From assembly GCA_026387165.1 (NCBI GenBank), contig JAPLMG010000099.1, positions 1 to 33,644 on the forward strand: a stretch of DNA of 33,644 nt, read 5' to 3'. The position numbers were made by a program, and so were the translations under genes. Shown one piece after another: positions 148 through 33,644 of the stretch. Each line of letters opens with the position of its first letter. Within the stretch, counting starts at the first letter, position 1. Below the pieces are notes generated by a model, which was not told the origin of the DNA, did no database searches, and worked only from the letters and a program-made list of their open reading frames with translations. The stretch is from Candidatus Omnitrophota bacterium (lineage in GTDB: Bacteria > Omnitrophota > Gorgyraeia > 2-01-FULL-45-10).

Positions 148-3100
148 TTACAACGATCTCATCGCCAGAGATTGAGCAAGATGCGCGTTACGGGCGTCCT
201 CGGGGCTTACGCGGCCCGCCCTGGGTATCACTCTTATGATGCCCTGTTTCAGGTTATCGGCCGTTAACGGCTGGACCTGATCATCATCGGCGACATAATT
301 CAGAAAAGCATTTAAGAGAGTTAGGTTTACCCCATTTTCGCCTTCTATCTGGCCATAGGCTATCTTGAAAGCCAGATCATACAACATGACGAACGGCACA
401 TAATGCTCGTTTGGATCGAGCCGCACGTTCAGGACCGTGCCCGCCACGTCATTCAGGCTTGCATGAGCTATCCACGCGGCATATCCCTTTATCGCCTCGA
501 GGGTCGCGTCTCCCGCTATCGTCACGACGAAGGTATCTTTGTCATTCAACCTTCTCTTTGCCTCCTCGATCCGTTCGGCAAGCCTTTGCCCTTCGCCACG
601 CGCTATTATCAGCTTTCCGTCGTAATGTTCCTCAAGATACTCTTCCGTCGCCTGGGCGACGAGCCTGGCATCGTCCTCCATTTCCGGATTGAGCGCGGTA
701 TCATGGGCGATGATCACCGGCTTACGCCCTATATCGGACAGGACGATGGCGTTGATCGTCGTCTCCAACGCCGTCAGCTCCACCTTCATTCTCCGGACGA
801 CTTCCGGCAGAAGCGTTTTACCTGTTTTAGCGATAGCGGCGTCGACCATCCCGTCAACGGTTTCGCTGACCGGGAATTCGGCATATATTGAAGACGGCAC
901 GCGAGCTCCGGGGTCAGCGGGCGGCGCTATGATCGGCGCCCTCTCTTCTTCCGTGGGCGCGAAAGCCAGGATCTCCCTCTCGTAACCAAGCCCGGAGAGG
1001 GCTATCTTTATCCGGGCGGCATCTTTTCTCATGCCCTCAATAAGCCCATTCCGAATATCTTTTATAAAAGAAGGCATCTTATTCCCAAGGCCTGCCACGC
1101 CGCCGCCTATCACAATATTGTCCGCAAAGCCCTCTTTTCTCACCTGCCAATATCTTACGTATGCCGCAATGCCCATACCGAACTCTCTTGCCGCCGTTTT
1201 GATCAATCTCCTGGCGATCATATTGCCTTTGCCCGCGAGCCTGTTAATATCCGTTAACTCCAGCTCGGTCACGTCCTTCTTATCCGCCTGCCTCAATAAT
1301 TGCGCGCCGTCCACATCTTTGGAAATTTGCCGCCGCATTCTCTTGATAAGTGTGGGGCCCGCCATGCGCGACTCAAAATATTCTTCGCCTTCTTTCAAAC
1401 CCGGGATTTCTGCCGAGGCCCGATACACATATCTTCCGTCCGGGGACCTTATGACCATATGGCCTATCTCGCTGACCATATTTCCCATGATTTTGTCGCC
1501 AACATAAGACTTGCCTTCTCTTATTACGCCATTTCCTATGCCCGTGCCCCATGTAACGAATGTGATGTCGCCGGTATTCGGCATAGTGCCGCGCGCGCCC
1601 GCTTCTCCCAAAGCGCCCATGCTCGCGTCATGTCCCACTATTACAGGCACGTGCCTTGAATATCTTTCGAGGAAACGCTTCTCAAGCCGGCTCTTCAACG
1701 GAAAGCCGGAGAGCGGTATATTCTCTGTATTGCCTATAATGCCGGTCTCGGGATCTAAAGGCCCGGGCGAAGCTACGCCTATCTTTACCACCTTCTCCTC
1801 GCCTACGCGCTCTATTACCCGCTCTATCTGGGACCATAACGCCTCAAAGAGCGCTTCGGCCGACTCTTTCGGCGTCGATACTTCCGGGACTTTGGCAAGC
1901 AGATCCGCATTTAGATTAACCGCCGCCGCGCCTATCTTGGTTCCGCCCAGGCTTACGCCCACCGAAACGCCTAAAGAAGCCGTGTCGAGCGTCCGCTGAA
2001 TTTTCACTATATCGGCCACATTGCTCATCGCCACATCATTTGTAAATTCATTTAAGGCCGCTAAAATTATTTGGCGGGTATCGCTTTCTCTATCTATGCC
2101 TTCCCCGGGGGTATTCAGATATCCGACCGCTTCTCCGACAGTGCTGAATCTGCCGGCCAACGCCAGTATCTCTACATAAGCCTGTTCATAATCCGATTCG
2201 TCCTCGATAAAAGAGACTGGGCCTTCCCACACATTATTACGTTCAATGTAACTCAACACGGAATCTGTGGAAACAGGACTTACTATGTTTTTATTATTGG
2301 CTCTGACCGCTCTTCTAACGAAGATTATGAGCTTGTCCAAAGCCATAGGCGCAAAACCGGTGGAATGGGCGCCAGCCAGCGACACGGTAGCTTCGCCGAC
2401 AGCCCCTTTGGTTGTCGAATAAGGATAGACTCTTTTATTACTTATAGCGTTGACGATGCGCACTATGCCGCTATTCGTGCTTCCGTTTGTCGCGGCCGCT
2501 ACCTGCCGCTCCTTGGCGTCTCTAAGAAGATGAGCGGGCCGCTTTGCGCCTTTTGATTTTAAATTTCTCCGCGCCTCTTTCGCAAGATCAACGATAAAGG
2601 AGCCAGGCCCTTCTGCCGGCCCGCGCTCCTCATATGCGGCAAGGTATTCATAAACGTCTTTGACAACTTCGGGCTTCACATTTAAAAAACGCAATAGTTC
2701 TATTGTAATAAGAGAAGCCGTTGCCGCGTCATCATGCAGATCGGCGACGAAGATGCCGTTATCGCTGGCGTGGCCCCATATCGCCGTACCATCTCCAAGC
2801 GTATAGATCGGCTTTCCGCTTGTCCGCAGGATATGGATACGCGGCTGGTGTTCCGCCCCTTTCTCTATTCGCTCGTTTGTGCCCAATAGCAGATCTTGGT
2901 ACGCTTCTCTCAGGGATGACACCATAAAAAAAGATTTCAAAATTTTGCTTGTAGGCCCCGCGAGGCCGCCCATGTTGATCAGATTTTCTACCAGGCCTTG
3001 CCTGAAATAATTCTTTTCTATCCTTGTGTCGAGATCGTCATGAATGCCCTGATCCGTTATGCCTACCAGCGGCACGGGTCTTCCGGCGGCATCCAGGGTA

Positions 3101-3666
3101 AATGGCTTCGTATCCTTTGATGCAGTGGCTACTGTCACCTCCCGCGAGGCCTGAGCATCAAACAGTCTTTTAATAATGGCCGGGGCGAGAGCCTTGACGG
3201 CGGCCGCGTTCCTATTCAACGTCCCTATTTCTCTTTCAGAAACCCGGTAGCTCAGCTTTCCGCGCGCCGCGATATGCTTTTCTATAGACGAATCCACGTC
3301 GCTCATAAACAGGCGAAGCGCTGCCGCGGCCGTAAGCGGTATTCCCCTCGCGTCGGCTTTTTCACGCACTCTATCAAGCCATCTTTCTATAATATAGTCC
3401 GCCCAAGCCCTATTATCATCATCCGCACGCTCCTCTGCAAGCCTTCTAACGGGACGATTAAGAAGGCTTGTAAAGAGCGGCGGCGCAAGCATGCCGCCCT
3501 TCGCGCTTTCCGGTCCGGTGGTGATCCGGGTTTCTTTTTTGGTATCGAGCGCGGATGTCATCGGTATCTCTGCGAACGCGATGTTTGTAAAAATAAAAGA
3601 GCCGGCGACAATTGACAATATCGCCTTCTTAAATCGCATGCATGACGGTAAATTTGCAGGATCCAT
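148..3666 (-). CDS. Exported multidomain protein (1172 aa): signal peptide, degenerate zincin-like module, ROK-family sugar kinase, conserved C-terminal domain
   Basis: Strong RBS (AGGAGGAGAAGAGGAT) before ATG 3666; an alternative ATG lies at 3639. Signal peptide RFKKAILSIVAGSFIFTNIAFA. ROK motifs SLGGTKI, GVASPGPLD, HDAxxxALGE, GTGIGNG, EIGHM, IGGGVA. The C-terminus is homologous to that of ORF 10249..12855. TAA stop. Confidence 0.9.
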   Translation of the reverse strand: MDPANLPSCMRFKKAILSIVAGSFIFTNIAFAEIPMTSALDTKKETRITTGPESAKGGMLAPPLFTSLLNRPVRRLAEERADDDNRAWADYIIERWLDRVREKADARGIPLTAAAALRLFMSDVDSSIEKHIAARGKLSYRVSEREIGTLNRNAAAVKALAPAIIKRLFDAQASREVTVATASKDTKPFTLDAAGRPVPLVGITDQGIHDDLDTRIEKNYFRQGLVENLINMGGLAGPTSKILKSFFMVSSLREAYQDLLLGTNERIEKGAEHQPRIHILRTSGKPIYTLGDGTAIWGHASDNGIFVADLHDDAATASLITIELLRFLNVKPEVVKDVYEYLAAYEERGPAEGPGSFIVDLAKEARRNLKSKGAKRPAHLLRDAKERQVAAATNGSTNSGIVRIVNAISNKRVYPYSTTKGAVGEATVSLAGAHSTGFAPMALDKLIIFVRRAVRANNKNIVSPVSTDSVLSYIERNNVWEGPVSFIEDESDYEQAYVEILALAGRFSTVGEAVGYLNTPGEGIDRESDTRQIILAALNEFTNDVAMSNVADIVKIQRTLDTASLGVSVGVSLGGTKIGAAAVNLNADLLAKVPEVSTPKESAEALFEALWSQIERVIERVGEEKVVKIGVASPGPLDPETGIIGNTENIPLSGFPLKSRLEKRFLERYSRHVPVIVGHDASMGALGEAGARGTMPNTGDITFVTWGTGIGNGVIREGKSYVGDKIMGNMVSEIGHMVIRSPDGRYVYRASAEIPGLKEGEEYFESRMAGPTLIKRMRRQISKDVDGAQLLRQADKKDVTELELTDINRLAGKGNMIARRLIKTAAREFGMGIAAYVRYWQVRKEGFADNIVIGGGVAGLGNKMPSFIKDIRNGLIEGMRKDAARIKIALSGLGYEREILAFAPTEEERAPIIAPPADPGARVPSSIYAEFPVSETVDGMVDAAIAKTGKTLLPEVVRRMKVELTALETTINAIVLSDIGRKPVIIAHDTALNPEMEDDARLVAQATEEYLEEHYDGKLIIARGEGQRLAERIEEAKRRLNDKDTFVVTIAGDATLEAIKGYAAWIAHASLNDVAGTVLNVRLDPNEHYVPFVMLYDLAFKIAYGQIEGENGVNLTLLNAFLNYVADDDQVQPLTADNLKQGIIRVIPRAGRVSPEDARNAHLAQSLAMRSL
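960..1980 (-). other. ROK-family (glucokinase-like) domain
   Basis: ROK motifs appear in the expected order. The canonical DxGGT Asp is replaced by Ser, and the Cys-rich zinc motif is absent. Confidence 0.85.
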
Positions 3667-3692
3667 ATCCTCTTCTCCTCCTGATTTCGTCT

Positions 3693-10220: not shown

Positions 10221-10248
10221 TAATATGGTATATGCGCAAGTTTAAGCG

Positions 10249-12855: not shown

Positions 12856-12893
12856 GTCGGCGCCGACCGCAGACTGATACTGCTGAAGCGCTA

Positions 12894-15800: not shown

Positions 15801-16376
15801 ATCGACAACGCTCGCCTTGTTCCTGGCGGCCTCTTCCAGCAGGTCTCTTTGCAATTCTCTTTCATTTCCGCCGTAAACATCCAATAGCCTGCCGTAATTA
15901 TCTGTTTTTTGAAGCGCTTCGCTGAATTCATTTCCGGAGGCTCCGGCCGGATAACTCTTCTCTCCATCCTTCGGAGGTTCGGAGACGGCTGTGCCGCCGC
16001 TGAGGCGCGCGTAAAGGATGTGGAAAGCGCTCTTGAATTCAGCGTTGCCGGTTATGGCTGCCGCTATTTCCTTCGCACGGGCTTGCGGCTGATCGGCACT
16101 GATTAAAGCGGCCTCCATCGCGCCCCTGTACGCATCGAGCATGATCGCTTCGTTCTGAGCGTATCCTCTCTCGCTCGCAATCATGAGGGTCTTATCGAGC
16201 CACCTCTGGACCCCAAAAGACTCCCAGCCTCGCTCAACCCGCCGCTCTCTCGCTATGATCTCTTTTATAAGAGCTTCAAGCTGATCCTTATCTACGCCGT
16301 CAACCTCTGAAAGGATCACCTTTATGCGCTCCTGGCTTATGCCGACGAGCCTCGATAACAGTATCGGGGCGAGCAT
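12894..16376 (-). CDS. Middle fragment: YvcK/GlmR-CofD (UPF0052)-like domain with insertions
   Basis: Motifs LLSGGSA, VTNVDDGGAT, PPLGD and GPGSFFTSL..L. Preceded by linker DGEKSYPAG. Confidence 0.7.
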   Translation of the reverse strand: MLAPILLSRLVGISQERIKVILSEVDGVDKDQLEALIKEIIARERRVERGWESFGVQRWLDKTLMIASERGYAQNEAIMLDAYRGAMEAALISADQPQARAKEIAAAITGNAEFKSAFHILYARLSGGTAVSEPPKDGEKSYPAGASGNEFSEALQKTDNYGRLLDVYGGNERELQRDLLEEAARNKASVVDIVIGRFGDDAKKLRQKLSGVSQTAQGPPDFSSDVLLLSGGSASRLWAPILLGLNPGLSINALVTNVDDGGATQHIINALRENGYGITPPLGDQVNSLFNSFLKADKIFTMLDDSGRIKIGYMGLSEEELLGMSLRDVMAIALRQAKIRDNLFGQALAAMDAGDFEKAGECLEKIKVTLAGIGLAKTSQAVNLDMRYDGAEALLAAALEQRKPRNLESIRRSHERNLSADFLTFSANLLNLADIVDKGIPGFDGKPIFNMKTLLKQNQSIRNLLLLAVLYDEGVFVRDLRLPEGRNAVDTKDKMRRYQMAVNRLAKAVGITNGQVSMSSFKPSVVYARYQDNVLAWWENISLDEKIQRNTRFHTENNGNSLVVTIDQRHGPSMVIRNPDGTDEASRISGTPLIKTLSRGQDILIKTLDSHGNILNAIEVGLDKEGKAYFSLNGDHWVVDESESGDVTYLVKDDKKIRLKNDNPGCGYKDKVLGFNGEGLGALFVPRFIAMQTHVTETVNLSKIVEYGFAEVKEENIVVSAEGGNEVREEHRVFSAPSAEAKSISRDDTNQVAVEMINNVSSGGYILTGPGSFFTSLCSHLLCDGVVEAIKAARARGVRSIFVFNPNEDNETVGLSLSELINFIEKISGAKFAELFDTALISDQVDYIKLLDYDKEYDDLTRKGDYKSDIASRVGIALRNKPDGIEKLGLSVFKLLIDEYIEERSIAVPYGVERYEWAIRNDPELLSRVTAQSAQFATLLFDRIYLTTRAAGDPANMAKKSTAPLTVDDAAVKYLSDSGVDVRRASIYGLVVSINRGDGKAKSSLGYLPELLKVMPLTSEIASMTFEQDISRLASVLKMDKARVRDAVRSKIDTNTLLTNFAESVGIKRTAALKNMAQAGLAEVTGDETYILTDALFSRVLLEKFISIQIKGLRLTDLTPLRLERIILDSVDVSGLIEQLSLTYGKSSLSLTAARPTLSS

Positions 16377-16427
16377 GCTCCCTTTTACATTTTTAGCGTC
16401 CGCCGCGCCCGTATCGGATAGTATCTC

Positions 16428-17963: not shown

Positions 17964-18033
17964 AAACACATTCCTCCATTGTTTGTAAATTCGTGACCTA
18001 CCTTTTTATTTCTAACTTTCTGTTAGTACTAAT

Positions 18034-27100: not shown

Positions 27101-30100
27101 AATTTCCCGAGGCATTCTTTATACAATTTACTTAACATGCCCTGTATCTTGATATGGGCTGCCGCGGCTTTAACCGTTCTCTTTAAGGCCGCAAAGCTCC
27201 CCTCTCTTCTCTTCGCGCCGCCCGCTGCCGAGCCCTTCATATTTCCGGCCGGATATGCCTTCTCGCCGGAGAGGGGTCTTCGCACAAGTATGCAGGACCC
27301 TATGGGGCGGCGCTCCCCGAGATTTTTTGTATCAGATTTTTTTCTCGCGCTCGCCCATGTCGTATAGCTTATTCCTTTATCCTTCCCATCTCTTTGAAAT
27401 GTCTGCACGTCGGCGCTCGAGCCTAAAAGAACCGCGTCGGTCACACCCAGATCTTTCAGAACGTCTATGACATCGGCTATGCGGGCCTCGTTATCTCTTG
27501 CCGGAATCCCGGATAGGTCTATCCGGACGAGCTTGCCGTCCTTATTGTATCCCATCGCTGAAAATGCCATCTGCTGATCGGCTGGCCATAGCAGGTCGTT
27601 GCCCTGCCTCGGCGGCCTTACGCCAAATTTAAGCTCCTGCATCATGCTTTGACCGTTAATGAGAAGCGGCGAGCCGGCTATACCATTATGTATGGGAAGA
27701 TCACTTACCGGTTTACCGTCCCTCAGGCCTATTTCATATACGCCTCTTTTGTCTCTGTCAAAACTTAATACCCAAAATCTGCCGCTCAACGGCACGTATT
27801 CCTGCTGGAATAATCCGCGCGCGCCGGCTGATTTTGCGATGACCTCTCCGCCCTTTATTATAAGGCTTGTTTGATCCCAGAACCCGCCCTGCGTTCCGCT
27901 GAATGCAAGAACGATATTCTCTTTATCCTGCGCGCCATCTACATACTTCTCTATGACCTTGCCGCCGGGCAGCGCTCCTGGAACATTCATCGGACGAGAT
28001 ATCATGTCGCGGGAGCGCAGGCCTTCATCTATTTCCTGGCTTATATCTACTTTGGCGGGATCGATAATGAACGCCTCTCCCTGAACGTCCACATCGCCCC
28101 TCTTGAGGGATAGCCCCATCTTTTCCACGCCGCCGCATATGGCCGCTGTTTTTTTAGACAATCGCTCGCGCACCGCTTCAAAATATTGCCTGTCGGCGTA
28201 CTTACACATCTCATTGAACTGGTCTATCTGGACCTGTACCGGTAAAACCCCCTGAGCTATATCGCCCGCTATATTCGCGGTGAGCACGGCCATAAAGGAC
28301 TCGAAGTCTATCCCGGCTTTGTCGAGATCGCGCAGCAGATCATCGATGTATCCGGCGGCCTTCTGCACATCCCGGAAGGGGCGGATCTTTACATCCGCCA
28401 GATATATGTCGGCCAATATGAAATGATTTTTGATGAGTATCCTTAAGAATTCCTTTTCATAAGATGGGATCTCAAAGCCTTTCGAGCGCAATTCTTTTAT
28501 CACGGCATCTTCAAATATTTCGGCGCCCCTCTCTGGATGATCAAAGATATCTAGCTTCCTGCCTCCGACAACTGCGCCTATGTCGGCCTTTCCTATGTCA
28601 TGCACCATAGGAATGAGGTCCATCACACGGCTGTTCCTGACGTCCTTTTTTACGGCCCGCGCAAGCGAATCGTGAACCTTTTTCATCACGCCGAAGTATG
28701 CTTCTTTAGAACCGTCTTTTATCGCCGCGCCGGACATTGCCTCTTTTGTCATGCGCATGAGGTAGCCATAATCCTCTTTTATAAGCGCGCGCACGCCTCT
28801 TATCACCAGAGCCGTATGATGGTAATGCGTCCTCGCGTATCCTTTTCCCGTTGGCATGCGCCGCATCTTATGGAAGACAGGCAGTTCACTGATGAGGCCC
28901 CACAGCTCGGCAGGGCTGATATATTTCACGGAACGCATATCTCCTTTTATAGGAGGCAACGGTGAACCGGGAGTCTCTGAATATGGGCCCTCAAGCGCCT
29001 TTCCGGCCGGATAGGCCTTCTCGCCGGAAACACCGGATAACTTTGTATCCCCTTTCCTTCCACGCTGGGACCGGAGAAACTCGTCAAGAAGCTGTGTGCC
29101 TATCGCGTAGTAGGCCAGAGTATGCTTGCCGCTCGGGTCCTGGCTCAGGCGGTTTGGCGCGTCCGTGATAAAATGTGTGGCCTCGGCAAAGAGGGCTTTC
29201 TCCAGCCACAGGGGTTCATCTTTTAAAAGTTCCATAAGGCGCGGCTGATTACGCAGCATTTCCGGCAGGCGGCGCCTTACCTCAAGGAAATTGGCAACCG
29301 CGCTCTTTGAGGTGTGATACTTTATATCGAAAGCGAATGTTCCGCCCTCCTTGCGCACCGATATGTCAAAAAGGTTATTGCGCACGATCTCCAGGAGAAA
29401 TGAGTGCAGGATCTTTCCGAGCTCATAGGTAAGGTCTATTCTCGACGGGGAGTTTCCCGGAAGGTCAACGCCGCGCACGTCAAAAAGCCGGAAATTGCCG
29501 TCGCCCATCCTCATTACATTTCTTAATAGGAGGTCGCCATGCGCGTATTTAAGGATGGAGCGCGGCTTAAGCCGCTCGATCAGTCCGTGATCGGCCTTTA
29601 CCTCCGATATCAGGCGCGGAAGGTTCGTGTGATCGACACCGTTGATCCTGATGACCGGAGCCTTCGACAGCTCTTCAAACATATAAGAGATATCGTCGTA
29701 TCGCGCATTCTCTATGGCAAACGGACGGCCCGATATAAGCTTGTCATAGACATCTCCCTCTTTTTTCGTCAATAGCCCGAACCTGTAGTCTACTCTCGCG
29801 AGGTGGACCTTTTGGACATAATCTACGGGCACTTCAAGGTTACCCCGCGAATAGAGGTGGCGGCAGAACTGATCTATCATGCTTTCGAGGTCGTCCAGGA
29901 AAGGCTGCGCTCCGCCGGAAGCGTGCTCGAGAAAATAGAAAGGCAGCGGCTTGCCTCCTTCGAGGTACTGCATACTGTAGAAGGCGAGTTCGTTCGTCTC
30001 ATGATATTCGTACACCTCCGGTATCATCGCCGCGCCTTCGGGGCCGAGCGACTGCTTCAGCTCCTTAAGCCTTTTATACTGCGCCCTGAGCCACGGAATG

Positions 30101-33015
30101 CCGTTCGATCCGACCCCTGCCCAGGTGGAATGTTTTACTATAACCTGCCTCCCCTGCCTGTCCCTCGCCAGAAATGTGTCGGCGCTCGATCCGCCGGTAG
30201 TGTACGGCTTGATGATCTCATACCGGTCAGAGATCTCTTTAGGGACTTTTATGCCTGACGGCTGCAGTTGCGCGGAATACGCGTTCTTTCTTGAGGCCCC
30301 TACCGGCCCTGTGAACCAGCCGATATCTTCTTTGAGCCCCAACTCCCGCTTCAACTTATCCGTCCTCAGTCCGCCTTTTTTTGGGCGCCTGGCTTTTCTA
30401 TGCATATCATCTGAATTACAGGCGGTCAAACGCGATCTGTCAAATTTCAGGATATCGGCCAATCTATCGGCAATTTCATACCTGTTAAGATATTCCGCTC
30501 CGCCTACGTGATAGATCCCGACTTTACCCTTAGAGACCAACTCTTCGATTATTTCGGCTAAGCTCTCCGCGGCGACAGGATTGGCGTAGATATCCACAGG
30601 AAGCTTGGCCTCTCCTCCTGCCTCAACTGTCTTCAAAAGCCCCATAACGAATCTCGACCGCAAGCCTAAGATCAGCGGGGCTCTTACTATCAGATAATCG
30701 TCAAGCAGGCTTTTGACAACACCCTCAGACTCTAACTTCGTCCTGCCGTAAACATTGACTGGCGACGGACTATCCTCTTCGGAATAAGGGCCGTTCTCAC
30801 CGTCGAACACTTGATCGGTGGAGATATAAACCATTTTTGCCCCTACGGCTTTACAGGCCAGAGCTACATTTCTCGCGCCGTTTACAATTACTTTATGGGC
30901 CTGTGCGCTGTGTTCCTCGCAGTAATCCACATCCGCTAAAACGGCCGTGTGCACTACGACTTTAGGCCTTATTGAATTGAACAGGTCGAGCACCTGTCTT
31001 CTGTTAGTTATATCCAGCTGAAGCAGCTCTCCCTTCTCTGTCGTATGATAGGTGCCGAGCGCCGTATGTTTTTTGGATAATTGAGCGAGGGCGGCTTCCC
31101 CTAAAAATCCGGATGAACCTATAACCAGAAAATCCGCCTTGCTCTCCTGCCGCGGCCGCGCTTTTTGCGGATGAGTTAAAAGGGAGCGTAAAAATTCTTC
31201 GACCCCGGCGGGATCGCGCATTTCCGAACGCTTCCCGGGATCCTGCGCCGCGAAGCCTTCGTAGAGATCGCGGTAGTTCCCGGCCCACTGCTCCACAAGA
31301 GCCTTCATTTTTGCGGACTTTCCCTGATGGTCTTCGATACCCGCGACAGCATCGGCAAGAGCCTCCTTAAAACGTTCTCCGTACTTCGCGAGCCTTGCCT
31401 CTTCCGGCACAGCCGGGTCGGCGTCGAAATACGCGGCCGTCGCGAGATAATACTGCCCGCTCTTCAATACCGATTCATATCTGTCTTTCCTGTTCGTGAG
31501 CACTGTAACGTATGGACGTTCGCTCTTGGCTGAATCGAACTTCGGCAGGATAATCAGATACGACGTATCTTTATCTTTAAGTAGTTTTGTAAGGCCCTTC
31601 GTGTGGAATCCTCCCGTGACGAGCGCCGCGATATTGCGGCCTTCCTGCCTCATCCTCTTTATCGTATTTTCGAGAATGACGGAGTCCCTCTTCCGGGCAG
31701 TTTCATAGAATTTAAGCGCCTCCGGAATATCTGACAGTATATTATTAAGATCGCAGTAACGCGCCGTCCTTGTCTTATATTTCAAGGAGAGCTCTTTTAT
31801 TAAGCTCTCTATCTCCCCGGCCGAACCTAAAAGGCCCATATCCTCTTTAAGATACCCGAAGTCTTCGTTTGTAAGCTTTATTTCGAATAGGCCTTTTATT
31901 GAGAACGCGTACCTTGAAAGCCTGTAGAGTCTTCTCTGGTCATCATTCGAGAATAACTTTTCCCTCACGGCGGATTCGAAGGCCTTCGCCTCTTCGAATA
32001 TCGAGATCGGATCTATGGACTCGTAGAGCGTAATGTACTCCGCGTAGGCTGCCAGGTTCCTGTATTTAGCCGTCTCAACGCCCCATTTGCGGGAGATATT
32101 CCCAAGGAAGAGATAAAATTCTCCGACAGATATCCTGCCCATCTTGAAATCGACCGACTTCAACATAAGCTCTTCGAGGCCATTTTTGTCCGATCTTTCG
32201 CTCAATTCGCCTATCAGAAGCTCGCGCTCATGGTTCGCTTTATCGAAGTCTATTCTTTTTTCAAGCTCGAGGCTCTTAACGAATTTCGAGAGGCTCATGT
32301 ATGATCTATAGTCGGCTCCTATCCTGGTGGCAAGCTCTCTGACCGACTGCCATCTCTCTTTGAAGGCCGTGGTATCATCACCTCCGGCCGCCGGACTATC
32401 CTCGAGCGCTCGAAGTTCGGGCGAATAGACCTTATCTTTAAGGCCTTTCACGGCATAGAGAAGGCCGTCTATATCTTTCCTGACGGATTCGTTCATCTCA
32501 TAAATGCGGCGGAACTCTTCCACGTTCTTCTTATAGAGCGCCCTGTCCTCTATACCGTACAGCGCTATATTTTTTCCTGAAGTTATCGAGAATAACTCTG
32601 CCGCTGACATAAGCCCTCTTGCCATCAGATCCTTAGCCGCGCTATCGCGCACCTTCTGATCCGGAAAAGTCTTCAAAAGAGAGGTGTCTATGTAGCCGCT
32701 TGACCCTTCTATGGCGACTACGCTGAGATCGTAATTTGTGACGAGCGAATTGAGGATCGAAACGATCGATTCCTGCGCATTCAATGAAGCGTGGGCGTCC
32801 TGTATGTTTATGATCGTATTGGGTATCGGGTATTGAGTATTGGGTTGAGGGGCTTTATAGGACTCTTGGGAGGAGACGAGGTTCTTCGGCACGGATATCC
32901 CGGCAAGGCCGCCTTGGGCAAAGACGATATCCTGGCTCAGGAATGTGATCAGTAAAGGTGCCGCTATTATCTTTATCCAGATCTTGCTTTTGCTCATAGA
33001 CATTATCTTATACAA
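18106..33015 (-). CDS. Giant exported polyprotein-like enzyme mosaic (4969 aa)
   Basis: Uninterrupted 14.9-kb ORF; the true start is probably ATG 33003 or 32997. Signal peptide KIWIKIIAAPLLITFLSQDIVFA. At least 12 recognisable modules, mostly separated by GEKxYPA. Family C-terminus and TAA stop. Confidence 0.92.
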   Translation of the reverse strand: MYKIMSMSKSKIWIKIIAAPLLITFLSQDIVFAQGGLAGISVPKNLVSSQESYKAPQPNTQYPIPNTIINIQDAHASLNAQESIVSILNSLVTNYDLSVVAIEGSSGYIDTSLLKTFPDQKVRDSAAKDLMARGLMSAAELFSITSGKNIALYGIEDRALYKKNVEEFRRIYEMNESVRKDIDGLLYAVKGLKDKVYSPELRALEDSPAAGGDDTTAFKERWQSVRELATRIGADYRSYMSLSKFVKSLELEKRIDFDKANHERELLIGELSERSDKNGLEELMLKSVDFKMGRISVGEFYLFLGNISRKWGVETAKYRNLAAYAEYITLYESIDPISIFEEAKAFESAVREKLFSNDDQRRLYRLSRYAFSIKGLFEIKLTNEDFGYLKEDMGLLGSAGEIESLIKELSLKYKTRTARYCDLNNILSDIPEALKFYETARKRDSVILENTIKRMRQEGRNIAALVTGGFHTKGLTKLLKDKDTSYLIILPKFDSAKSERPYVTVLTNRKDRYESVLKSGQYYLATAAYFDADPAVPEEARLAKYGERFKEALADAVAGIEDHQGKSAKMKALVEQWAGNYRDLYEGFAAQDPGKRSEMRDPAGVEEFLRSLLTHPQKARPRQESKADFLVIGSSGFLGEAALAQLSKKHTALGTYHTTEKGELLQLDITNRRQVLDLFNSIRPKVVVHTAVLADVDYCEEHSAQAHKVIVNGARNVALACKAVGAKMVYISTDQVFDGENGPYSEEDSPSPVNVYGRTKLESEGVVKSLLDDYLIVRAPLILGLRSRFVMGLLKTVEAGGEAKLPVDIYANPVAAESLAEIIEELVSKGKVGIYHVGGAEYLNRYEIADRLADILKFDRSRLTACNSDDMHRKARRPKKGGLRTDKLKRELGLKEDIGWFTGPVGASRKNAYSAQLQPSGIKVPKEISDRYEIIKPYTTGGSSADTFLARDRQGRQVIVKHSTWAGVGSNGIPWLRAQYKRLKELKQSLGPEGAAMIPEVYEYHETNELAFYSMQYLEGGKPLPFYFLEHASGGAQPFLDDLESMIDQFCRHLYSRGNLEVPVDYVQKVHLARVDYRFGLLTKKEGDVYDKLISGRPFAIENARYDDISYMFEELSKAPVIRINGVDHTNLPRLISEVKADHGLIERLKPRSILKYAHGDLLLRNVMRMGDGNFRLFDVRGVDLPGNSPSRIDLTYELGKILHSFLLEIVRNNLFDISVRKEGGTFAFDIKYHTSKSAVANFLEVRRRLPEMLRNQPRLMELLKDEPLWLEKALFAEATHFITDAPNRLSQDPSGKHTLAYYAIGTQLLDEFLRSQRGRKGDTKLSGVSGEKAYPAGKALEGPYSETPGSPLPPIKGDMRSVKYISPAELWGLISELPVFHKMRRMPTGKGYARTHYHHTALVIRGVRALIKEDYGYLMRMTKEAMSGAAIKDGSKEAYFGVMKKVHDSLARAVKKDVRNSRVMDLIPMVHDIGKADIGAVVGGRKLDIFDHPERGAEIFEDAVIKELRSKGFEIPSYEKEFLRILIKNHFILADIYLADVKIRPFRDVQKAAGYIDDLLRDLDKAGIDFESFMAVLTANIAGDIAQGVLPVQVQIDQFNEMCKYADRQYFEAVRERLSKKTAAICGGVEKMGLSLKRGDVDVQGEAFIIDPAKVDISQEIDEGLRSRDMISRPMNVPGALPGGKVIEKYVDGAQDKENIVLAFSGTQGGFWDQTSLIIKGGEVIAKSAGARGLFQQEYVPLSGRFWVLSFDRDKRGVYEIGLRDGKPVSDLPIHNGIAGSPLLINGQSMMQELKFGVRPPRQGNDLLWPADQQMAFSAMGYNKDGKLVRIDLSGIPARDNEARIADVIDVLKDLGVTDAVLLGSSADVQTFQRDGKDKGISYTTWASARKKSDTKNLGERRPIGSCILVRRPLSGEKAYPAGNMKGSAAGGAKRREGSFAALKRTVKAAAAHIKIQGMLSKLYKECLGKFSGGNVVRDARDTKEYILDEIAKWRAQKRDGPFVIAIDGNSGSLKTTMAKELRSVLGSSGQKAEIVRVDWFLRDRYNDRYPKYADEMGRAATSVNWKRISLREEKFEQDVLEKLRRFRKSGEPEISLDLADLYAELNGGKLSLKQAVKITRDTVVIIEGNYALQDKWSDCYDLKALMLAKPASSAYRRASRDSIKAPEGFVRDVLQRISLPSYFDYLLTENIDPDIVAVTDSWKRAKRGKSGEKGYPAQGEPELPVWISRIPGMPWQESLDREGYYYDQAGGFIASKNSCMRERVLSYDGITIYKNSGVEVKNGLPKKVQDLADLLRVALLDVSKIIPQRGPPIPVHVIPYKPHLVGKTIVNGSVHLTLDQKFIETLIMYRDRYPRAIPWITAEKVAHELNHGNTMGTDKEEAMEERSNFIDVDMPLYRYLCAHPELKAEVDRFFDETGFRSRAKTFFKHFLDVHKDDAPSELRETAERFIDSFYSFSFKFHPAEKAIPAGEVSELAGVGKAYPAGDEGRALLKYPDPHASGLQLDDYDKAHYRWDAENNHWYREVVKGRRLILGTWEDVKRSQKEGAAPTDMEYHVVIRTNAGYSVYVFDSHSDSGEYLEEAVERADVSSSDNHQIFIDDHMDTQEIGDLDARIAKTIAEKGRLMHHIWVSFGRGRAGPEEPDEELEKLGLENRMCRSQDYFSVGTRPRRTKAIFNIDTDAAESRQIADFIKEVINKDGVIPSTVHISTSPPNCSERDMDRAASSFDGLLYPEGFGTIERCVDLSRALPQLIAESAAGEEKAGHRIVLKNIKVADAEFAVIDKEEIDAGLIAPQDIIFPDNKEENSEMEKSGEELLRSGRVGVITVAGGMAARAGINYPKGMHPIMPVTSRTLFEARADEILAAGKHYGSIIPWFIMTSELNDTATREYFAANNYLSLGKENVIFIKQESLPAREAGSDNPAMAGDGVFFRAANGHGGLYRAMRTVKARTGGGAVSAVSALREAGMRGIDTFLYCQIDNPTPVIDKMLLGYHSKKHSDHTTVLVRKRSPGEGLGMPAKDAITGEPFVVEYNQPAAGVIRDRNGYEYGSISRFVYSYDFLASATPPPFRYVRNKKAKIFKDGAVTDGLIDKFESLVFDAIGQAKTASYITLDRAECFASFKEMTGEDSPAAVAKAISNLAKRWLAQSGVDAQVSEESTLEFSSAFALHQDDIKGKVGRNWRIEGASMAYLGGREIKIGKNVIIRGRLNVKFEDPYDGSFEVPDNAAVKDADIYVRKGEKLIYGTSGPEPVLSLLKDGEKSYPAKEKNPERAFKVGVRPDESFEVKLSIGVFDVSNGLLAGEIGGKKTFFVVDGGVGKALTGKIKAYTERYGINAHIMVVPGGEDMKAGMRHVYRVIREAEKFGIDRKEMMVLVGGGAVLDMAGFAASILHRGVEHIRIPSTLLAQDDAGVGTKNAVNYAGQKNFLGVFQPPKTVIIDPTILSTLDTRQMRSGMAEVVKVSLIKDRGLFEVVEGHYKDVLNNDLSAGSRMKDIIWGTIMAHLGQICTDPYETKLARPLDYGHEWGHRLEMVTDHRLNHGEAVAVGMAIDTHISYARGYISKNELERTLSLLEAIGLPIYDRSATVKNIWPGLESFRRHLGGELTISLLDGIGGKQDVHTILKSETERAISYLKARVAGKSSGEKQYPAAEEKLPKMIFFDIDGVLLKCPGDRYIKMARRLEDYGVKIAAEELERLLYCYGDKEYEKKVMRGLVSAEEYITYVNEELRRFGLKRDFTPEQLFELRYEIRGPNAKVAAMFSLLKQNGIKFGLLSSRWNGDPAVILKKLNEAYPCIFDDNDLIVFTCDEHLGKDDVELFARARERASRKLGISEDEILFVDDNERVLKTAAQAGLRGLNYVYHDGDAPDPGSFYIFARLLADKGIKAADDWTPLAGLDGKIAVNPNTGRIRYGPEGPVVKSEVDLWVVRHGRTRANTITDVFQGDVDGEMNQLDEVGMRQSVEAAGKLFAALESRIRSGDEPVILSSGLGRSKDTAAAFAKLVKERTGREIPVITDRMTNEISFGVWENKVPRDLSEEDKKLAIRYREHFDANVRPRGGESFADLLIRARKFLDMVNREHKGKTVILFGHGTYIGAMMALLGDKRLVDEELQLNWRSGKRMVENAEPILLASVPASGEKAYPAEEDAYDRIRRIQELKANGEKITMLTAYDAVTARAFSNAGIEMLLVGDSVAMVKYGYPTTNYATMEMMLKHIRMVSEGADRSRTVVIGDMPYRSYDTPEEALASARLMIEAGADAVKMEGGRDMGRIVRALVSAGIPVMGHIGYMPQFGRPRVFGGSKIEMMKLLEDAATLEEAGAFSIVLEMVYDGTAEMVSKHLTIPTIGIGSGNEADGQVLVSNDVLGLTEYRREGVERSEHLEVMPRFVERFTRPYELKYPKNIQYDPSITPLIGEGAIERAGRRFFDAVKLRSYPKPWHYYQLGTRFGRLQALADELRELPINHKSGDLLRVIRKIRSRDGITIAIRCNSVLSIRSGRIHLQTVDFSLDEAIEAAPVEMLGMWVLNQYGKKIDRNIDAESVKLKKGRTAKFDTFKSYHTLNLISGRARIVSGDGKTALGELNARNPYLFVTAQTGNYSIVADEDTEFVRSSAVIKTGEAAKPKSLKSYIVGMPGDSVPPLERPAIAREIDRIFNGSAEIYVMKSSNPAELMAEAKRRGIKYGAVLDIGSGAGIRETIAHLQALSDKAFREAHADIAIINASNIDSIPLGDLTAKVTEIERLLPAVAPASIEALKADLERRTKAISPSFAHANSAALNTLFEKRDKAVSITTQGVVESGMLYSLRDKIRARWQKMDIHDKGDDPIKEVVAITDPRVRNDDAAKRYISALGLEGYVDHAFARTAEEVNGLSTLFSGTPGHVGLRIRKGEIKDYETLRSAIPPLVILELGDINGVFVDTNSYEALFELFTVGELPDIPGVSRDEMRRIFIYVPKAVPIYYDKEVREHQRALRAILSAA
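19720..20570 (-). other. panB: Ketopantoate hydroxymethyltransferase (PanB) domain
   Basis: ITMLTAYD, LLVGDS, GDMPYxSY, AVKMEGG, VMGHIG, IPTIGIGSG, DGQVLV. Confidence 0.92.
20630..21260 (-). other. Histidine phosphatase (phosphoglycerate mutase-like) domain
   Basis: VVRHGRT, SSxLxR, EISFGVWE, GES, FGHG. Confidence 0.88.
21390..22060 (-). other. HAD-family phosphatase domain
   Basis: FFDIDGVL (motif I), LLSS (motif II), GK (motif III), LFVDD (motif IV). Confidence 0.88.
22110..23200 (-). other. 3-dehydroquinate synthase-like sugar-phosphate cyclase domain
   Basis: GGGAVLDMAGFAA, RG, PSTLLAQDDAGVGTKN, RPLDYGHEWGHRLE, HGEAVAVGM. Confidence 0.88.
23280..24620 (-). other. UDP-N-acetylglucosamine/UDP-sugar pyrophosphorylase (UAP/UDPGP family) domain
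   Basis: AGGMAARAG..PKG, IPWFIMTS, ANGHGG, QIDNP, VEY, KFESLVFD, RAECFASFK. Confidence 0.85.
24770..25400 (-). other. Arginase/deacetylase-fold (UPF0489-like) domain
   Basis: DSH, IFIDDHMD, NIDTD and ISTSP metal-site-like motifs. Confidence 0.5.
25630..26340 (-). other. Zincin-like HExxH module
   Basis: RGPP..VHV upstream, AHELNH at ~25897-25914, and a downstream EE. Confidence 0.5.
26400..27050 (-). other. Uridine kinase-like P-loop domain
   Basis: IAIDGNSGSLKTT, VDWF, IIEGNY, RxxRD. Confidence 0.8.
27280..28100 (-). other. Phosphodiester glycosidase (NAGPA)-like domain, divergent
   Basis: AGSPLLING, SAMGYNKDGKL, LGVTDAVLLGSS (cf. AxNLDGGGS) and RPIGSCILV. Confidence 0.5.
28170..28900 (-). 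other. HD-domain metal-dependent phosphohydrolase
   Basis: HT..., HDIGK, HPERGA, NH and a distal D. Confidence 0.75.
29060..30230 (-). other. APH/choline-kinase-like phosphotransferase domain
   Basis: GGSSADT glycine loop, IVKH, MQYL, HGDLLLRN, LFDVRG, YELGK. Confidence 0.78.
30330..31140 (-). other. dTDP-4-dehydrorhamnose reductase (RmlD-like) SDR domain
   Basis: GSSGFLG, LDIT, HTA..DVD.CE, YISTDQVFDG, PVNVYGRTKLESE, ARRP. Confidence 0.9.
31490..32815 (-). other. Conserved N-terminal domain with a TIKI/TraB/ChaN-like motif order
   Basis: IQDAH, VAIEG, LYGIED, KRD, LVTGGFH, SY. All are also conserved in the ORF at 16428..17963. Confidence 0.55.
32816..32843. repeat. Four tandem heptamers (GTATTGG/GTATCGG/GTATTGA/GTATTGG) inside the CDS
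   Basis: Seen directly. Encodes PNTQYPIPNT, which is absent from the paralog. Confidence 0.7.
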
Positions 33016-33075
33016 TCGTCATTGCGAGCCCGAGCGAAGCGCATGGTACATGGCTCCGCTCCTCGCAATGACGAT
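33015..33075. repeat. Intergenic palindromic element with 14-bp perfect terminal inverted repeats (REP/MITE-like)
   Basis: ATCGTCATTGCGAG (33015-33028) and CTCGCAATGACGAT (33062-33075). Confidence 0.75.
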
Positions 33076-33083
33076 AAGTAACG

Positions 33084-33644
33084 TTACGCCGCCGCTAACG
33101 CGGTTCTCCTGGCGTAGTAGTTCCTGTTTAATTCTCCGTAGTCCTTAGGCTCCGCCTTAGGTATCAGCATGATAAACCTTAACGCTTTGTCATAAGAATC
33201 TAATTTTACCATCGGTATATTCGGCGGATCTTTTCCGGCGGCTATATCCAATGCCACGGATAACATCTCGAGTATCTTTACATCGAGATGTATTGACGGG
33301 TCTTTATTATCCTTAATGAAGGCTTCCAGTTCAGCGGGGTCTATTGCCGCGATAAAAGCCTTCGCTTCCGTAGGCGTGCTCCTTAACGAGTCGAAGCTTG
33401 ACGATGCAACGGTTCCTTTGGACGCCAGGATGACTACATTCGAGAGCTTCGTATTGGCCTTATCGGCTTCCTTCAATACGGAAGCCGCTATCTCTTTTGA
33501 GTTGGATCTTACAAATACCACGTTATCAAGGCCCATCGAGCGGAGGATATCCGGGATAGATTCGATCTGCTGTATGACCGGGTTCATCGCCTGATGCTGG
33601 AGGCTGCCTGTTTCGTTGTAGCCCGGTATCCAGTCTGTCTCGAG
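33084..33644 (-). CDS. 3' end of another member of the same protein family (partial; runs off the window)
   Basis: The frame is open to the window edge (LETDWIPGYNETGSLQHQAMNP..). It ends with the family signature FIMLIPKAEPKDYGELNRNYYARRTALAAA and a TAA stop. Confidence 0.85.
   Translation of the reverse strand, partial: LETDWIPGYNETGSLQHQAMNPVIQQIESIPDILRSMGLDNVVFVRSNSKEIAASVLKEADKANTKLSNVVILASKGTVASSSFDSLRSTPTEAKAFIAAIDPAELEAFIKDNKDPSIHLDVKILEMLSVALDIAAGKDPPNIPMVKLDSYDKALRFIMLIPKAEPKDYGELNRNYYARRTALAAA

What the first reader, a model, noticed from the sequence alone, without database searches (positions are those of the whole stretch)
148..33644. Array of signal-peptide-bearing giant proteins loaded with cytoplasmic metabolic enzymes
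Seen: five co-oriented paralogous scaffolds with a common C-terminal signature, four of them complete and starting with signal peptides, but with different cargo. Established: these cargo enzymes need ATP/PPi, UTP, NAD(P)H or folate, which are not normally available outside the cytoplasm. Inference: they act in the cytoplasm of another cell, as a modular effector arsenal of a predatory or episymbiotic bacterium. The architecture resembles Omnitrophota giant proteins.
Basis: partly seen in the sequence, partly recalled or inferred. Interest (0 to 1): 0.8.

Follow-up and report, generated by a model that had tools for sequence, protein, structure and literature searches.

The report
Omnitrophota modular exported multi-enzyme giant proteins
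This contig from an uncultured Omnitrophota bacterium is an array of very large proteins that carry an export signal, strings of swappable sugar-metabolism enzyme modules and a shared end domain, a kind of protein recently noted in this phylum whose place of action is still unknown.

Summary
The window is a whole 33.6-kb contig of an Omnitrophota MAG. It holds only co-oriented giant genes on the minus strand. Each starts with a signal-peptide-like leader, carries strings of enzyme domains and ends in a shared C-terminal domain.

The three ORFs P0005, P0004 and P0003 are one gene. Independent contigs read the in-frame TAG as GAG, and none bridges the P0004/P0003 junction.

New details:
- Two genes start with a ~470-aa TIKI/EreA/ChaN-fold domain with invariant D-x-H…E…H. 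It heads giant ORFs in 34 of 40 relatives.
- The C-terminal domain (99 clusters among 1.84 billion proteins) always closes the protein.
- Module junctions carry a GEKxYPA(G) motif, 13 DNA matches in this genome against at most 1 in each of 400 other Omnitrophota genomes.
- Orthologues keep both ends but swap cargo, and three of six breakpoints lie at this motif.

Stand-alone panB, two pfk and aroB exist elsewhere in the genome, so the embedded copies are accessory.

Delivery into another cell is not shown, and no secretion genes lie in the window. Glycolytic and multi-enzyme domains in signal-bearing Omnitrophota giant proteins were already reported in preprints of 2023 and 2026. I call this a new variant of a known kind, of moderate interest.

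The parts
33084..33644 (-). Last 186 aa (C-terminal domain) of an upstream family member. Its 5' part lies on contig C62, with a signal-like leader and four GEKxYPAG linkers.
   Evidence: 141-nt overlap of the C62 end with the window; linkers on C62; leader ORF on C62.
18106..33015 (-). P0006, 4969 aa (probable ATG at 32997). Order: signal peptide, TIKI-like N-domain, RmlD, kinase-like, HD, NAGPA-like, PRK-like, HExxH module, unknown, UDPGP, sugar-phosphate cyclase (DHQS-like), HAD, His-phosphatase, PanB, unknown, C-terminal region.
   Evidence: The start is inferred from orthologue P0107 and database entry P0106.
31456..32997 (-). Signal peptide plus TIKI/EreA/ChaN-fold N-domain of P0006.
   Evidence: 35% identical to P0005. 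A member of alignment A1.
29005..29025 (-). Linker GEKAYPA (P0006, around residue 1333).
27247..27267 (-). Linker GEKAYPA (P0006, around residue 1919).
26359..26379 (-). Linker GEKGYPA (P0006, around residue 2215). Mosaic breakpoint with P0107.
25582..26352 (-). HExxH module flanked by linkers, 74% identical in P0107. It recurs inside giant ORFs of 13 of 400 other Omnitrophota genomes. No family match.
25561..25575 (-). Degenerate linker GKAYPA (P0006, around residue 2482). Mosaic breakpoint.
23224..23244 (-). Linker GEKSYPA (P0006, around residue 3260).
22072..22092 (-). Linker GEKQYPA (P0006, around residue 3644). Mosaic breakpoint.
20596..20616 (-). Linker GEKAYPA (P0006, around residue 4136), just before PanB.
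18109..19239 (-). Conserved C-terminal 377 aa of P0006, 80% identical in P0107.
16428..17969 (-). P0005: signal peptide plus TIKI-like N-domain (invariant D74, H76, E104, H472). It is the 5' part of one gene with P0004 and P0003.
16428..16430 (-). In-frame TAG that splits P0005 from P0004. Orthologues have Glu here, and Logan contigs of runs X1 and X3 read GAG.
12894..16427 (-). P0004 frame (open from 16427; 1160 aa from the ATG at 16376): conserved post-N-domain segment, linker GEKSYPA at 15945-15965, CofD/YvcK-like domain.
12925..12936 (.). Junction not bridged by any contig of runs X1-X3, with loose ends on both sides. Probably a missing segment or mis-join, which creates the apparent P0004 stop and the frame change to P0003.
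   Evidence: The G017 orthologue is continuous across the equivalent place.
10249..12855 (-). P0003 (frame open upstream to 13218): divergent SIS/PGI-like region (weak lead), linker GEKKYPA at 10891-10911, C-terminal domain at 10252-10881.
3693..10220 (-). P0002, 2175 aa: signal-like leader, udk/PRK-like P-loop domain, unknown region, divergent PFK (GGNDH in place of GGDGS; TIDND and MGR kept), C-terminal signature.
   Evidence: Motif names are recalled.
148..3666 (-). P0001, 1172 aa: leader 64% identical to that of P0005 over 42 aa, no N-domain, divergent ROK domain, C-terminal domain at 151-810.

Best explanation
The window is an operon-like array (gaps of 26-136 nt) from an Omnitrophota genome. 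It encodes five members of a phylum-wide family of modular giant proteins.

Each member has:
1. A Sec-type, apparently cleavable signal peptide with a family-specific leader.
2. In two of the five, a ~470-aa TIKI/EreA/ChaN-fold hydrolase domain. It has an invariant D-x-H…E…H set and a ~290-aa helical insert.
3. A variable string of enzyme modules, mostly hexose-phosphate, nucleotide-sugar and cyclitol chemistry.
4. A C-terminal alpha/beta domain that always closes the protein.

The two ends are conserved between orthologues. The cargo between them is exchanged module by module. In this lineage the junctions carry the peptide GEKxYPA(G).

I infer that the proteins are exported across the inner membrane. 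I infer that they act as accessory, fast-changing multi-enzyme toolkits in the periplasm, on the surface or at the contact zone with a host cell. They are not housekeeping enzymes.

Shown: the architecture, the family distribution, the mosaic structure, the duplicate housekeeping genes, and that the 'split' gene is one gene. Inferred: export, the site of action, enzyme activity, and any role of the linker motif (processing site, docking site or recombination joint).
For: Domains.

Leaders:
- One N-terminal hydrophobic segment and no internal TM.
- n-h-c layout with small residues at -3/-1.
- The strict leader motif is present in 54 of 74 family N-termini.
- Signal peptidase I is present in the genome.

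N-domain:
- Found in 35 of 41 genomes including G000, heading open frames up to 14,048 aa.
- Model pLDDT is 87.1.
- The five best VIA rows are all TIKI-superfamily structures: HopBA1 Z 9.1, EreC 8.9, ChaN 8.6, 2qgm 8.4, 2rad 7.8.
- D74, H76, E104 and H472 are invariant in 21 sequences. The H-to-E spacing is 28, as for His85/Glu113 of Bcr135 and H3902/E3930 of RRSP (passages of PMC6254334).

C-domain:
- 99 clusters at E<=1e-3 among 1.84 billion representatives.
- Every listed match ends within 20 residues of the C-terminus.
- Model pLDDT is 91.5.

Mosaicism:
- P0005 orthologues are 79-82% identical but carry different cargo.
- P0006 and P0107 share four blocks at 66-80% identity and differ elsewhere.

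Linker:
- 9 motif copies in window proteins, all between domain envelopes.
- Codons vary synonymously.
- 13 DNA matches in G000 with 0 control matches; 0 in the five same-genus genomes; at most 1 in each of 400 other genomes.

Accessory status: stand-alone panB, two pfk and aroB exist. The embedded copies are 26-45% identical to them.

Literature: the multi-enzyme class and the 94% SP/TM share.
Against: - ATP, UTP, NAD(P)H and methylene-tetrahydrofolate are not expected outside the cytoplasm, so exported enzymes would lack co-substrates unless a host supplies them.
- No signal-peptide predictor was run.
- Several modules are strongly divergent. PFK scores 115 bits against 363-380 for the stand-alone copies. 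ROK lacks its cysteine motif and has Ser where I recall Asp. They may not be catalytic.
- No secretion genes lie in the window.
- The genome is 77% complete with 5.5% contamination. The contig's GC (0.518) is above the bin's 95th percentile (0.506), so mis-binning within Omnitrophota is possible.
- The Pfam match of the N-domain to the ChaN/Tiki family is below threshold (best E 0.045, 9 of 21 members).
- Foldseek gave no match at E<=0.001 for the N-domain.
- No protease co-varies with the linker. The N-domain is phylum-wide, and the HExxH module occurs in 13 of 400 other genomes that lack the motif.
Confidence: 0.6

Rival explanations
1. First reader's reading, sharpened. The proteins are polyprotein effectors delivered into a prey or host cell. 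There they are cut at the GEKxYPA(G) junctions, by the TIKI-like N-domain, the HExxH module or a host factor. The released enzymes use host ATP, UTP, NAD(P)H and folate to redirect host sugar metabolism. This works like a MARTX toxin.
For: - Signal-bearing proteins with conserved ends and a variable middle.
- A strictly conserved 7-8 residue peptide at module junctions, with synonymous codon variation.
- A TIKI-fold domain with the full catalytic set.
- TIKI-family RRSP is an endopeptidase that cuts after Tyr in EKY|DP of Rap1 (passage of PMC6254334). That is a loose likeness to E-K-x-Y-P.
- Co-substrates are absent outside cells.
- Housekeeping copies exist elsewhere.
- Omnitrophota are described as host-dependent or predatory (abstracts).
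Against: - No translocation apparatus, pore-forming repeats or autoprocessing domain was identified. Pfam gave no RTX repeats and no C80 peptidase.
- The motif is confined to one lineage, while both candidate proteases are widespread.
- P0001 and P0002 have no motif.
- There is no evidence of cleavage or of host contact.
Confidence: 0.18
2. The proteins are membrane-tethered or soluble cytoplasmic metabolons. The N-terminal hydrophobic segment is not cleaved, or is not used for export. The enzyme strings work inside the producer, channelling sugar phosphates and nucleotide sugars for envelope or storage-polymer synthesis.
For: - All cargo chemistry is cytoplasmic (established knowledge).
- The themes recur: ROK, PFK, PGI/GPI, PGM, UDPGP, CofD/YvcK.
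- Nielsen and Lui consider this reading for the TM-only 46% of giants.
Against: - Positive charges precede the hydrophobic segment, not follow it, which predicts N-in/C-out.
- A-x-A type sites are conserved across distant paralogues.
- There is no second TM to bring the chain back.
- Cargo differs between close relatives while stand-alone housekeeping copies are kept.
Confidence: 0.14
3. P0006 and P0107 are fused biosynthetic assembly lines for a sugar-derived small molecule (C7-cyclitol or amino-deoxysugar type) rather than general metabolic cargo.
For: - The DHQS-like module is closest to the 2-epi-5-epi-valiolone synthase ValA and to a desmethyl-4-deoxygadusol-synthase entry (4p53, 5tpr).
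- Its neighbours are kinases, a nucleotidyltransferase, an RmlD-type reductase and two phosphatases.
- P0107 carries DegT aminotransferase and B12-radical SAM modules.
Against: - The module sets differ between the two orthologues, so no one pathway is conserved.
- The other array members carry glycolysis-type domains.
- There is no glycosyltransferase or exporter in the window.
- The signal peptide is unexplained by this reading.
Confidence: 0.06
4. The array is decaying or artefactual: pseudogenes or assembly chimeras without function.
For: - An in-frame TAG and an unsupported junction lie in the window.
- Two more in-frame TAGs lie in neighbouring giant frames.
- The MAG is fragmented.
Against: - Independent contigs read the window's TAG as GAG.
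- Frames of up to 4969 codons stay open.
- The ends are conserved at 66-82% in other genomes and metagenomes.
- PanB and the cyclase module exceed NCBIfam's curated cut-offs.
Confidence: 0.02

Closest known systems
Omnitrophota giant proteins, 'multi-enzyme metabolic cluster' class (Nielsen & Lui 2026 preprint, 10.64898/2026.06.07.730766) and Archaeovorins (West-Roberts et al. 2023 preprint, 10.1101/2023.11.21.568195)
   Same: - Same phylum.
- Many different enzyme Pfams tile one polypeptide.
- Sugar-metabolism content (ROK, PGM/PMM, HAD, HD).
- Signal peptide or TM in 94% of the catalogue.
- Glycolytic domains predicted outside the cell are noted as a puzzle (sections read).
   Different: - The window's proteins are 1.2-5 kaa, below the 10-30 kaa thresholds of those surveys, and have a signal peptide only, without internal TM helices.
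- In the parts I read, neither preprint describes the TIKI-fold N-domain, the C-terminal closing domain, a junction motif, or cargo exchange between orthologues.
- The word search of the 2026 text for 'linker' and 'polyprotein' gave 0 hits.
- The 2023 text says that N-terminal regions generally lack identifiable domains and that cleavage points are unknown.
MARTX toxins (multifunctional autoprocessing repeats-in-toxin)
   Same: - Very large exported proteins with conserved ends and a variable central string of enzyme modules exchanged between strains.
- One MARTX module (RRSP) has the same TIKI fold as the N-domain here (VIA Z 5.9; PMC6254334 passages).
   Different: - No RTX or MARTX repeats and no C80 cysteine protease domain in Pfam.
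- An N-terminal Sec signal instead of type I secretion.
- The cargo is metabolic enzymes, not known cytotoxic effectors.
- No evidence of autoprocessing.
TIKI superfamily (Tiki, TraB/PrgY, erythromycin esterases, ChaN, HopBA1, RRSP)
   Same: - A parallel beta-sheet core with flanking helices.
- A two-His, two-acid set at equivalent places.
- His-to-Glu spacing of 28.
   Different: - A ~290-aa all-helical insert (residues 157-445 of P0005).
- Asp in place of the first Glu.
- The sequence match to Pfam PF04187 is below threshold.
- Fused to the head of giant multi-enzyme proteins.
- Substrate unknown.
Cellulosome-type and other modular extracellular multi-enzyme systems
   Same: Signal-bearing proteins that string several catalytic modules together through short conserved linkers.
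   Different: - No cohesin or dockerin domains in the window.
- The modules are cytoplasm-type kinases, isomerases and transferases rather than glycoside hydrolases.

Membership tests
Omnitrophota multi-enzyme giant proteins (Nielsen & Lui class 1) | Encoded by Omnitrophota | tested here: met
   The best relatives of P0005 are mostly records titled Candidatus Omnitrophota. Some TPA records are labelled uncultured Planctomycetia.
Omnitrophota multi-enzyme giant proteins (Nielsen & Lui class 1) | Many distinct Pfam families tile the polypeptide and none dominates | tested here: met
   P0006 matches 17 Pfam families, covering at least 9 separate domains, with no repeats.
Omnitrophota multi-enzyme giant proteins (Nielsen & Lui class 1) | Length of at least 10,000 aa (the catalogue's threshold) | tested here: not met
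   The longest window protein is 4969 aa. A neighbouring frame on C251/C62 reaches at least 14,070 aa if one TAG is read through.
Omnitrophota multi-enzyme giant proteins (Nielsen & Lui class 1) | Signal peptide and/or TM helices | tested here: inconclusive
   The N-termini have n-h-c features and A-x-A type sites. No predictor (SignalP, DeepTMHMM) was available.
TIKI superfamily | Core fold: parallel beta-sheet flanked by helices | tested here: met
   VIA-wide ranks 1-5 are HopBA1, EreC, ChaN, 2qgm and 2rad, Z 9.1-7.8 with 157-181 residues aligned. Foldseek alone was not significant.
TIKI superfamily | Two-His/two-Glu catalytic set | tested here: met
   D74, H76, E104 and H472 are invariant in 21 sequences. 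Spacing is as in Bcr135 and RRSP. The first acid is Asp, not Glu.
TIKI superfamily | Significant sequence-profile match to a member family | tested here: inconclusive
   PF04187 is matched by 9 of 21 members at best E 0.045, below the cut-off. The PDB profile search found nothing relevant.
MARTX toxins | N- and C-terminal glycine-rich RTX-type repeats | tested here: not met
   No such Pfam family at E<=0.01 in any window protein.
MARTX toxins | Inositol-phosphate-activated cysteine protease domain (C80) | tested here: not met
   No match in Pfam.
MARTX toxins | Type I secretion without an N-terminal signal peptide | tested here: not met
   N-terminal signal-like leaders are present.
Housekeeping PanB / AroB / PFK / PGI | Sole genomic copy of the enzyme | tested here: not met
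   Stand-alone panB, aroB and two pfk are found. For PGI no PF00342 match was found anywhere in a 77%-complete genome, so that case is open.
3-dehydroquinate synthase (aroB proper) | Closest relatives are DHQ synthases of the shikimate pathway | tested here: inconclusive
   NF004852, named DHQ synthase, is passed (355.7 against 333 bits). But the best solved relatives are the sedoheptulose-7-phosphate cyclases 4p53 and 5tpr, and TIGR01357 aroB is below its cut-off (246.8 against 305).

The most novel reading that the evidence does not exclude
These are bacterial polyproteins. The GEKxYPA(G) junctions would be processing sites, cut by a TIKI-fold or HExxH module carried in the same proteins. 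After export, and perhaps transfer into a host cell, the giant protein would fall apart into a strain-specific set of free metabolic enzymes that run on the host's ATP, UTP and cofactors. This would give the first defined cleavage points for Omnitrophota giant proteins. It would also be a metabolic counterpart of MARTX effector delivery.
Probability: 0.12. Interest if true: 0.85.

Novelty: new variant of a known kind. Interest (0 to 1): 0.5.

Why it matters
Omnitrophota are abundant, uncultured, host-dependent ultra-small bacteria. Their giant genes take up a large share of small genomes, yet nobody knows how the products are built, sorted or used.

This locus is small enough to handle and gives the family a clear anatomy:
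- a conserved leader;
- a probable TIKI-type hydrolase head;
- exchangeable enzyme modules;
- a defined junction motif;
- a closing domain.

That turns a vague puzzle (cytoplasm-type enzymes behind a signal peptide) into experiments. One can test export of the leader, look for peptide ends at the motif in metaproteomes, and assay the head domain on linker substrates.

It also shows that part of the apparent fragmentation of such genes in MAGs comes from assembly.

Tried and rejected
- **TAG reassignment or programmed readthrough.**
  - Three in-frame TAGs lie in giant frames.
  - Rejected as a code change: TAG ends 202 of 841 long ORFs, with a normal distance to the next stop.
  - No suppressor tRNA is among the 35 tRNAs found.
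  - Other contigs read the window's TAG as GAG.
- **Foreign origin of cargo by composition.** GC3 is alike in the N-domain and the cargo (0.52-0.69). No signal.
- **Linker motif in relatives.** The two single matches looked at (G022, G038) are chance: one lies in a frame with stops, the other in an MnmG-like gene.
- **Other repeated junction motifs.** None was found in six orthologous giant ORFs or in 15 other giant ORFs of G000.
- **C-terminal domain fold.** Foldseek gave nothing at E<=0.001. The best VIA Z was 6.7, to periplasmic sugar-binding and receiver-type alpha/beta folds, not above background.
- **HExxH module.** No Pfam family (best E 0.021, to an unrelated viral family). No usable Atlas hit.
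- **Other unassigned stretches.** P0006 residues 2490-2790 and 4400-4969, P0002 residues 600-1340 and P0001 residues 200-560 gave no Pfam family at E<=0.01.
- **P0003.** No hit against PDB sequences.
- **RNA evidence.** No RNA holder was listed among the 8 runs, so expression is untested.
- **Iterative HMM for all C-terminal subfamilies.** It did not grow beyond its 6 seeds. The subfamilies share only the last ~35 residues.

Full report
**What is there**

The window is the whole contig C293 of a 1.93-Mb, 308-contig MAG. The MAG is 77.5% complete with 5.5% contamination.

All long ORFs lie on the minus strand. They are P0007 (3' end only), P0006 (4969 aa), P0005 (513), P0004 (1160), P0003 (868), P0002 (2175) and P0001 (1172). 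The gaps between the real genes are 26-136 nt.

Pfam and NCBIfam find enzyme domains strung along them:
- P0006: RmlD (197 bits), a PRK/udk-like P-loop domain, UDPGP, a DHQ-synthase-like domain (NF004852, 355.7 bits against a cut-off of 333), HAD, a histidine phosphatase and PanB (TIGR00222, 209.7 against 207.55).
- P0002: PFK and a udk-like domain.
- P0001: ROK.
- P0004: a CofD/YvcK-like domain.

By sequence against solved structures, the DHQS-like module is closest to sugar-phosphate cyclases (4p53 and 5tpr).

P0003 has no Pfam or PDB sequence match. The Atlas gives only a lead to SIS/PGI-like clusters (score 0.90).

**Signal peptides**

By Kyte-Doolittle scan, P0001, P0005 and P0006 each have one N-terminal hydrophobic segment. 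None of the proteins has an internal TM candidate. The single internal peak in P0006 is the glycine-rich loop of the cyclase module.

P0001, P0002, P0005 and P0006 all have two or three Lys/Arg before the hydrophobic stretch. They end in A-F-A, V-Y-A or V-F-A, followed by a polar residue.

I read 74 N-termini of family members from other genomes. Of these, 54 carry the strict motif [S/Y]-N-hydrophobic-[S/A/G]-F-A, with Ala at -1 in 50 of the 54. Most of the other 20 still end in an A-x-A type site.

This is what a cleaved Sec signal looks like. The conservation goes beyond what signal peptidase I needs, which I cannot explain. No predictor was available.

**One gene, not three**

Orthologues of P0005 are 79-82% identical in the same genus and family. 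They head single open frames of 3362-4897 aa.

Aligned to them, the window's TAG after P0005 sits where all six orthologues have Glu. The next 17 codons before P0004's ATG are conserved.

Logan contigs of two runs read window position 16430 as C, which makes the codon GAG. One of these runs may be the source sample.

At the other split, no contig of three runs bridges 12925-12936, and loose ends diverge on both sides. The G017 orthologue is continuous from the P0004 tail into P0003, at 49% identity over 924 aa, and P0003's Met is internal there.

So P0005, P0004 and P0003 are one gene whose window copy carries one wrong or minority base and a missing or mis-joined piece.

The fifth gene begins on contig C62, which overlaps the window end by 141 nt. 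It begins with a signal-like leader in a frame-shifted ORF.

**The head domain**

P0005 and the first ~520 residues of P0006 are paralogues (35% identical). Four more copies lie on contigs C251, C7, C68 and C81.

The domain occurs in 35 of 41 genomes searched, including G000. There are several copies per genome, at the head of open frames up to 14,048 aa.

A 21-sequence alignment has invariant Q-D-A-H (73-76), E104, R444 and G-G-x-H (469-472). The AlphaFold model has pLDDT 87.1. It is an alpha/beta core split by a ~290-residue helical insert.

Foldseek found nothing at E<=0.001. The all-against-representatives VIA search put five TIKI-superfamily structures in the first five places: HopBA1 Z 9.1, EreC 8.9, ChaN 8.6, 2qgm 8.4 and 2rad 7.8. 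RRSP scored 5.9.

The RRSP structure paper (passages read) names a two-His/two-Glu catalytic set for this superfamily: E3900, H3902, E3930 and H4030, with H85/E113 in Bcr135. D74, H76, E104 and H472 match it in order and in the His-to-Glu spacing of 28.

Pfam's ChaN/Tiki family is matched only below threshold (9 of 21 members, best E 0.045).

I therefore take the head to be a probably active TIKI-type hydrolase. Whether it is a peptidase or an esterase, and what its substrate is, remain unknown.

**The closing domain**

The last ~35 residues are alike in P0001, P0002, P0003, P0006 and P0007. The same signature ends the largest ORFs of the genome.

For the P0001/P0003 subfamily, I searched a profile of the last ~210 residues against 1.84 billion representatives. 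It found 99 clusters at E<=1e-3 (50 at <=1e-30). Every listed match ended within 20 residues of the C-terminus, in proteins up to 4735 aa.

The model (pLDDT 91.5) is a compact alpha/beta domain. The signature forms its last strand and helix, so it is not a disordered tail. No solved structure stands out.

**The junction motif**

K-x-Y-P-A occurs nine times in the window's proteins: seven in P0006, one in P0004 and one in P0003. It is mostly S/D-G-E-K-x-Y-P-A-G. All nine copies fall between domain envelopes.

In the six-frame translation of the genome, the motif is otherwise found only in the C62 gene (4 copies), C199 (3, a near copy of that gene) and C264 (1). Two further matches (C55, C229) look like chance.

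Codons vary synonymously, so the peptide is what is kept.

The back-translated DNA pattern matches 13 times in G000, with 0 control matches. It matches 0 times in five genomes of the same genus. In a sample of 400 other Omnitrophota genomes, 10 have one match each and none has more. The two single matches that I checked (G022, G038) are chance.

The only long homologue of P0006's middle part in the 5.8-billion-protein library is P0107 (3278 aa). It shares four blocks with P0006:
- residues 7-618 of P0006 at 76% identity;
- the HExxH module with both of its linkers (2204-2489) at 74%;
- the linker plus HAD module (3643-3882) at 66%;
- the last 377 residues at 80%.

Elsewhere P0107 carries other modules: B12-radical SAM, a DegT aminotransferase and a ROK-like region. 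Three of the six internal block ends lie within 11 residues of a motif copy.

The orthologues of the P0005 gene likewise keep the head and swap the middle, carrying PGM/PMM, PFK, PGI, cupin-type GPI, CofD and UDPGP.

The motif therefore marks joints at which modules are gained and lost. It may be a protease site, a docking or modification site, or simply the joint that recombination has spread. This is open. Neither candidate protease follows the motif's narrow distribution.

**Accessory, not housekeeping**

Stand-alone panB (401 bits), two pfk (380 and 363 bits) and aroB (148 bits) lie on other contigs. The embedded domains score lower (262, 115 and 128 bits) and are only 45%, 26% and 31% identical to them.

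No PF00342 PGI was found anywhere, which cannot be read as absence in a 77%-complete genome.

The genome has four secretins, several T2SS/T4P ATPases, TolC-like proteins and signal peptidase I. None of them is on this contig.

**What it most likely is**

It is an array of exported modular multi-enzyme proteins of an Omnitrophota-wide family. They are accessory and fast-changing in cargo. Their site of action is unresolved: periplasm, surface, contact zone or host cytoplasm.

Its main appeal is that it solves the co-substrate problem.

**What is known**

West-Roberts et al. (2023 preprint; abstract, passages and section 8 read) already report glycolytic enzyme domains in predicted extracellular parts of Omnitrophota giant proteins. 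They suggest proteolytic processing but state that cleavage points are unknown.

Nielsen and Lui (2026 preprint; abstract and sections 8, 9 and 21 read) define a 'multi-enzyme metabolic cluster' class. They report that 94% of long proteins carry a signal peptide or TM helices.

Seymour et al. 2023 was seen only in the search listing.

The head-domain fold, the closing domain, the junction motif and the orthologue mosaics are not in the parts I read. A word search of the 2026 text for 'linker' and 'polyprotein' gave none. A library search joining Omnitrophota with Tiki, ChaN, erythromycin esterase or polyprotein listed nothing relevant among the 12 papers shown. The preprints' supplements were not open to me.

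Noticed in passing
G000 contigs C251 (21033-21035) and C62 (7290-7292): Two more in-frame TAG codons split giant frames (6014|8055 aa and 2429|5535 aa). A TolC-like OEP Pfam match runs across the C251 TAG in a 14,070-aa frame. C251, C62 and the window overlap end to end (15 and 141 nt), so the locus may hold a frame of more than 20,000 aa.
   Followed up: partly
window 16430 and 12925-12936: The window differs from independent Logan contigs at one base that creates a stop codon, and at a junction that no contig bridges. Gene splits in this MAG may be assembly products.
   Followed up: yes
N-termini of family members (window 3580-3666, 17880-17969, 32900-32997; loci L036-L115): The leader motif F-x-x-[S/Y]-N-hydrophobic-[S/A/G]-F-A is conserved far beyond an ordinary signal peptide (54 of 74). 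This hints at a dedicated recognition step.
   Followed up: partly
window ~3480-3500 (P0001) and ~16360-16376 (P0004): A short conserved segment, K-G-x-M-L-A-P, follows either the signal peptide (P0001) or the head domain (P0004 and its orthologues). P0001 looks like a head-domain-deleted derivative of a P0005-type gene. Its C-domain is 53% identical to that of the G001 orthologue.
   Followed up: partly
P0005 residues 157-445 (window ~16635-17500): The helical insert of the head domain drew weak Foldseek rows to ClyA-family pore-forming toxins (AhlB, SmhB, MakA/E; E 0.1-0.4, probability <=0.14). This may be no more than long helical bundles.
   Followed up: no
L118 (G000:C62) 99-695: A small HD-GYP-like gene (HDIGK … HHSRFGGGGYP) lies between the 5535-aa gene and the fifth family member, upstream of the window.
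   Followed up: no
G000 contig C199: A near-duplicate of the 3' gene of C62, with three linkers and a ROK-like domain. Its end overlaps the window start by 39 nt. It is a strain variant or a repeat that broke the assembly.
   Followed up: no
L034 12466-14001 and L035 1-2370: P0002-like genes, with the same leader and first conserved segment, follow the P0005-type gene in G009 and G006. The gene order of the array is therefore partly conserved in the family.
   Followed up: partly
Genome-search hits in G246, G359 and G146: The HExxH module recurs inside open frames of 19,582 to 68,606 aa in other Omnitrophota genomes, three times within one 58,052-aa frame.
   Followed up: no
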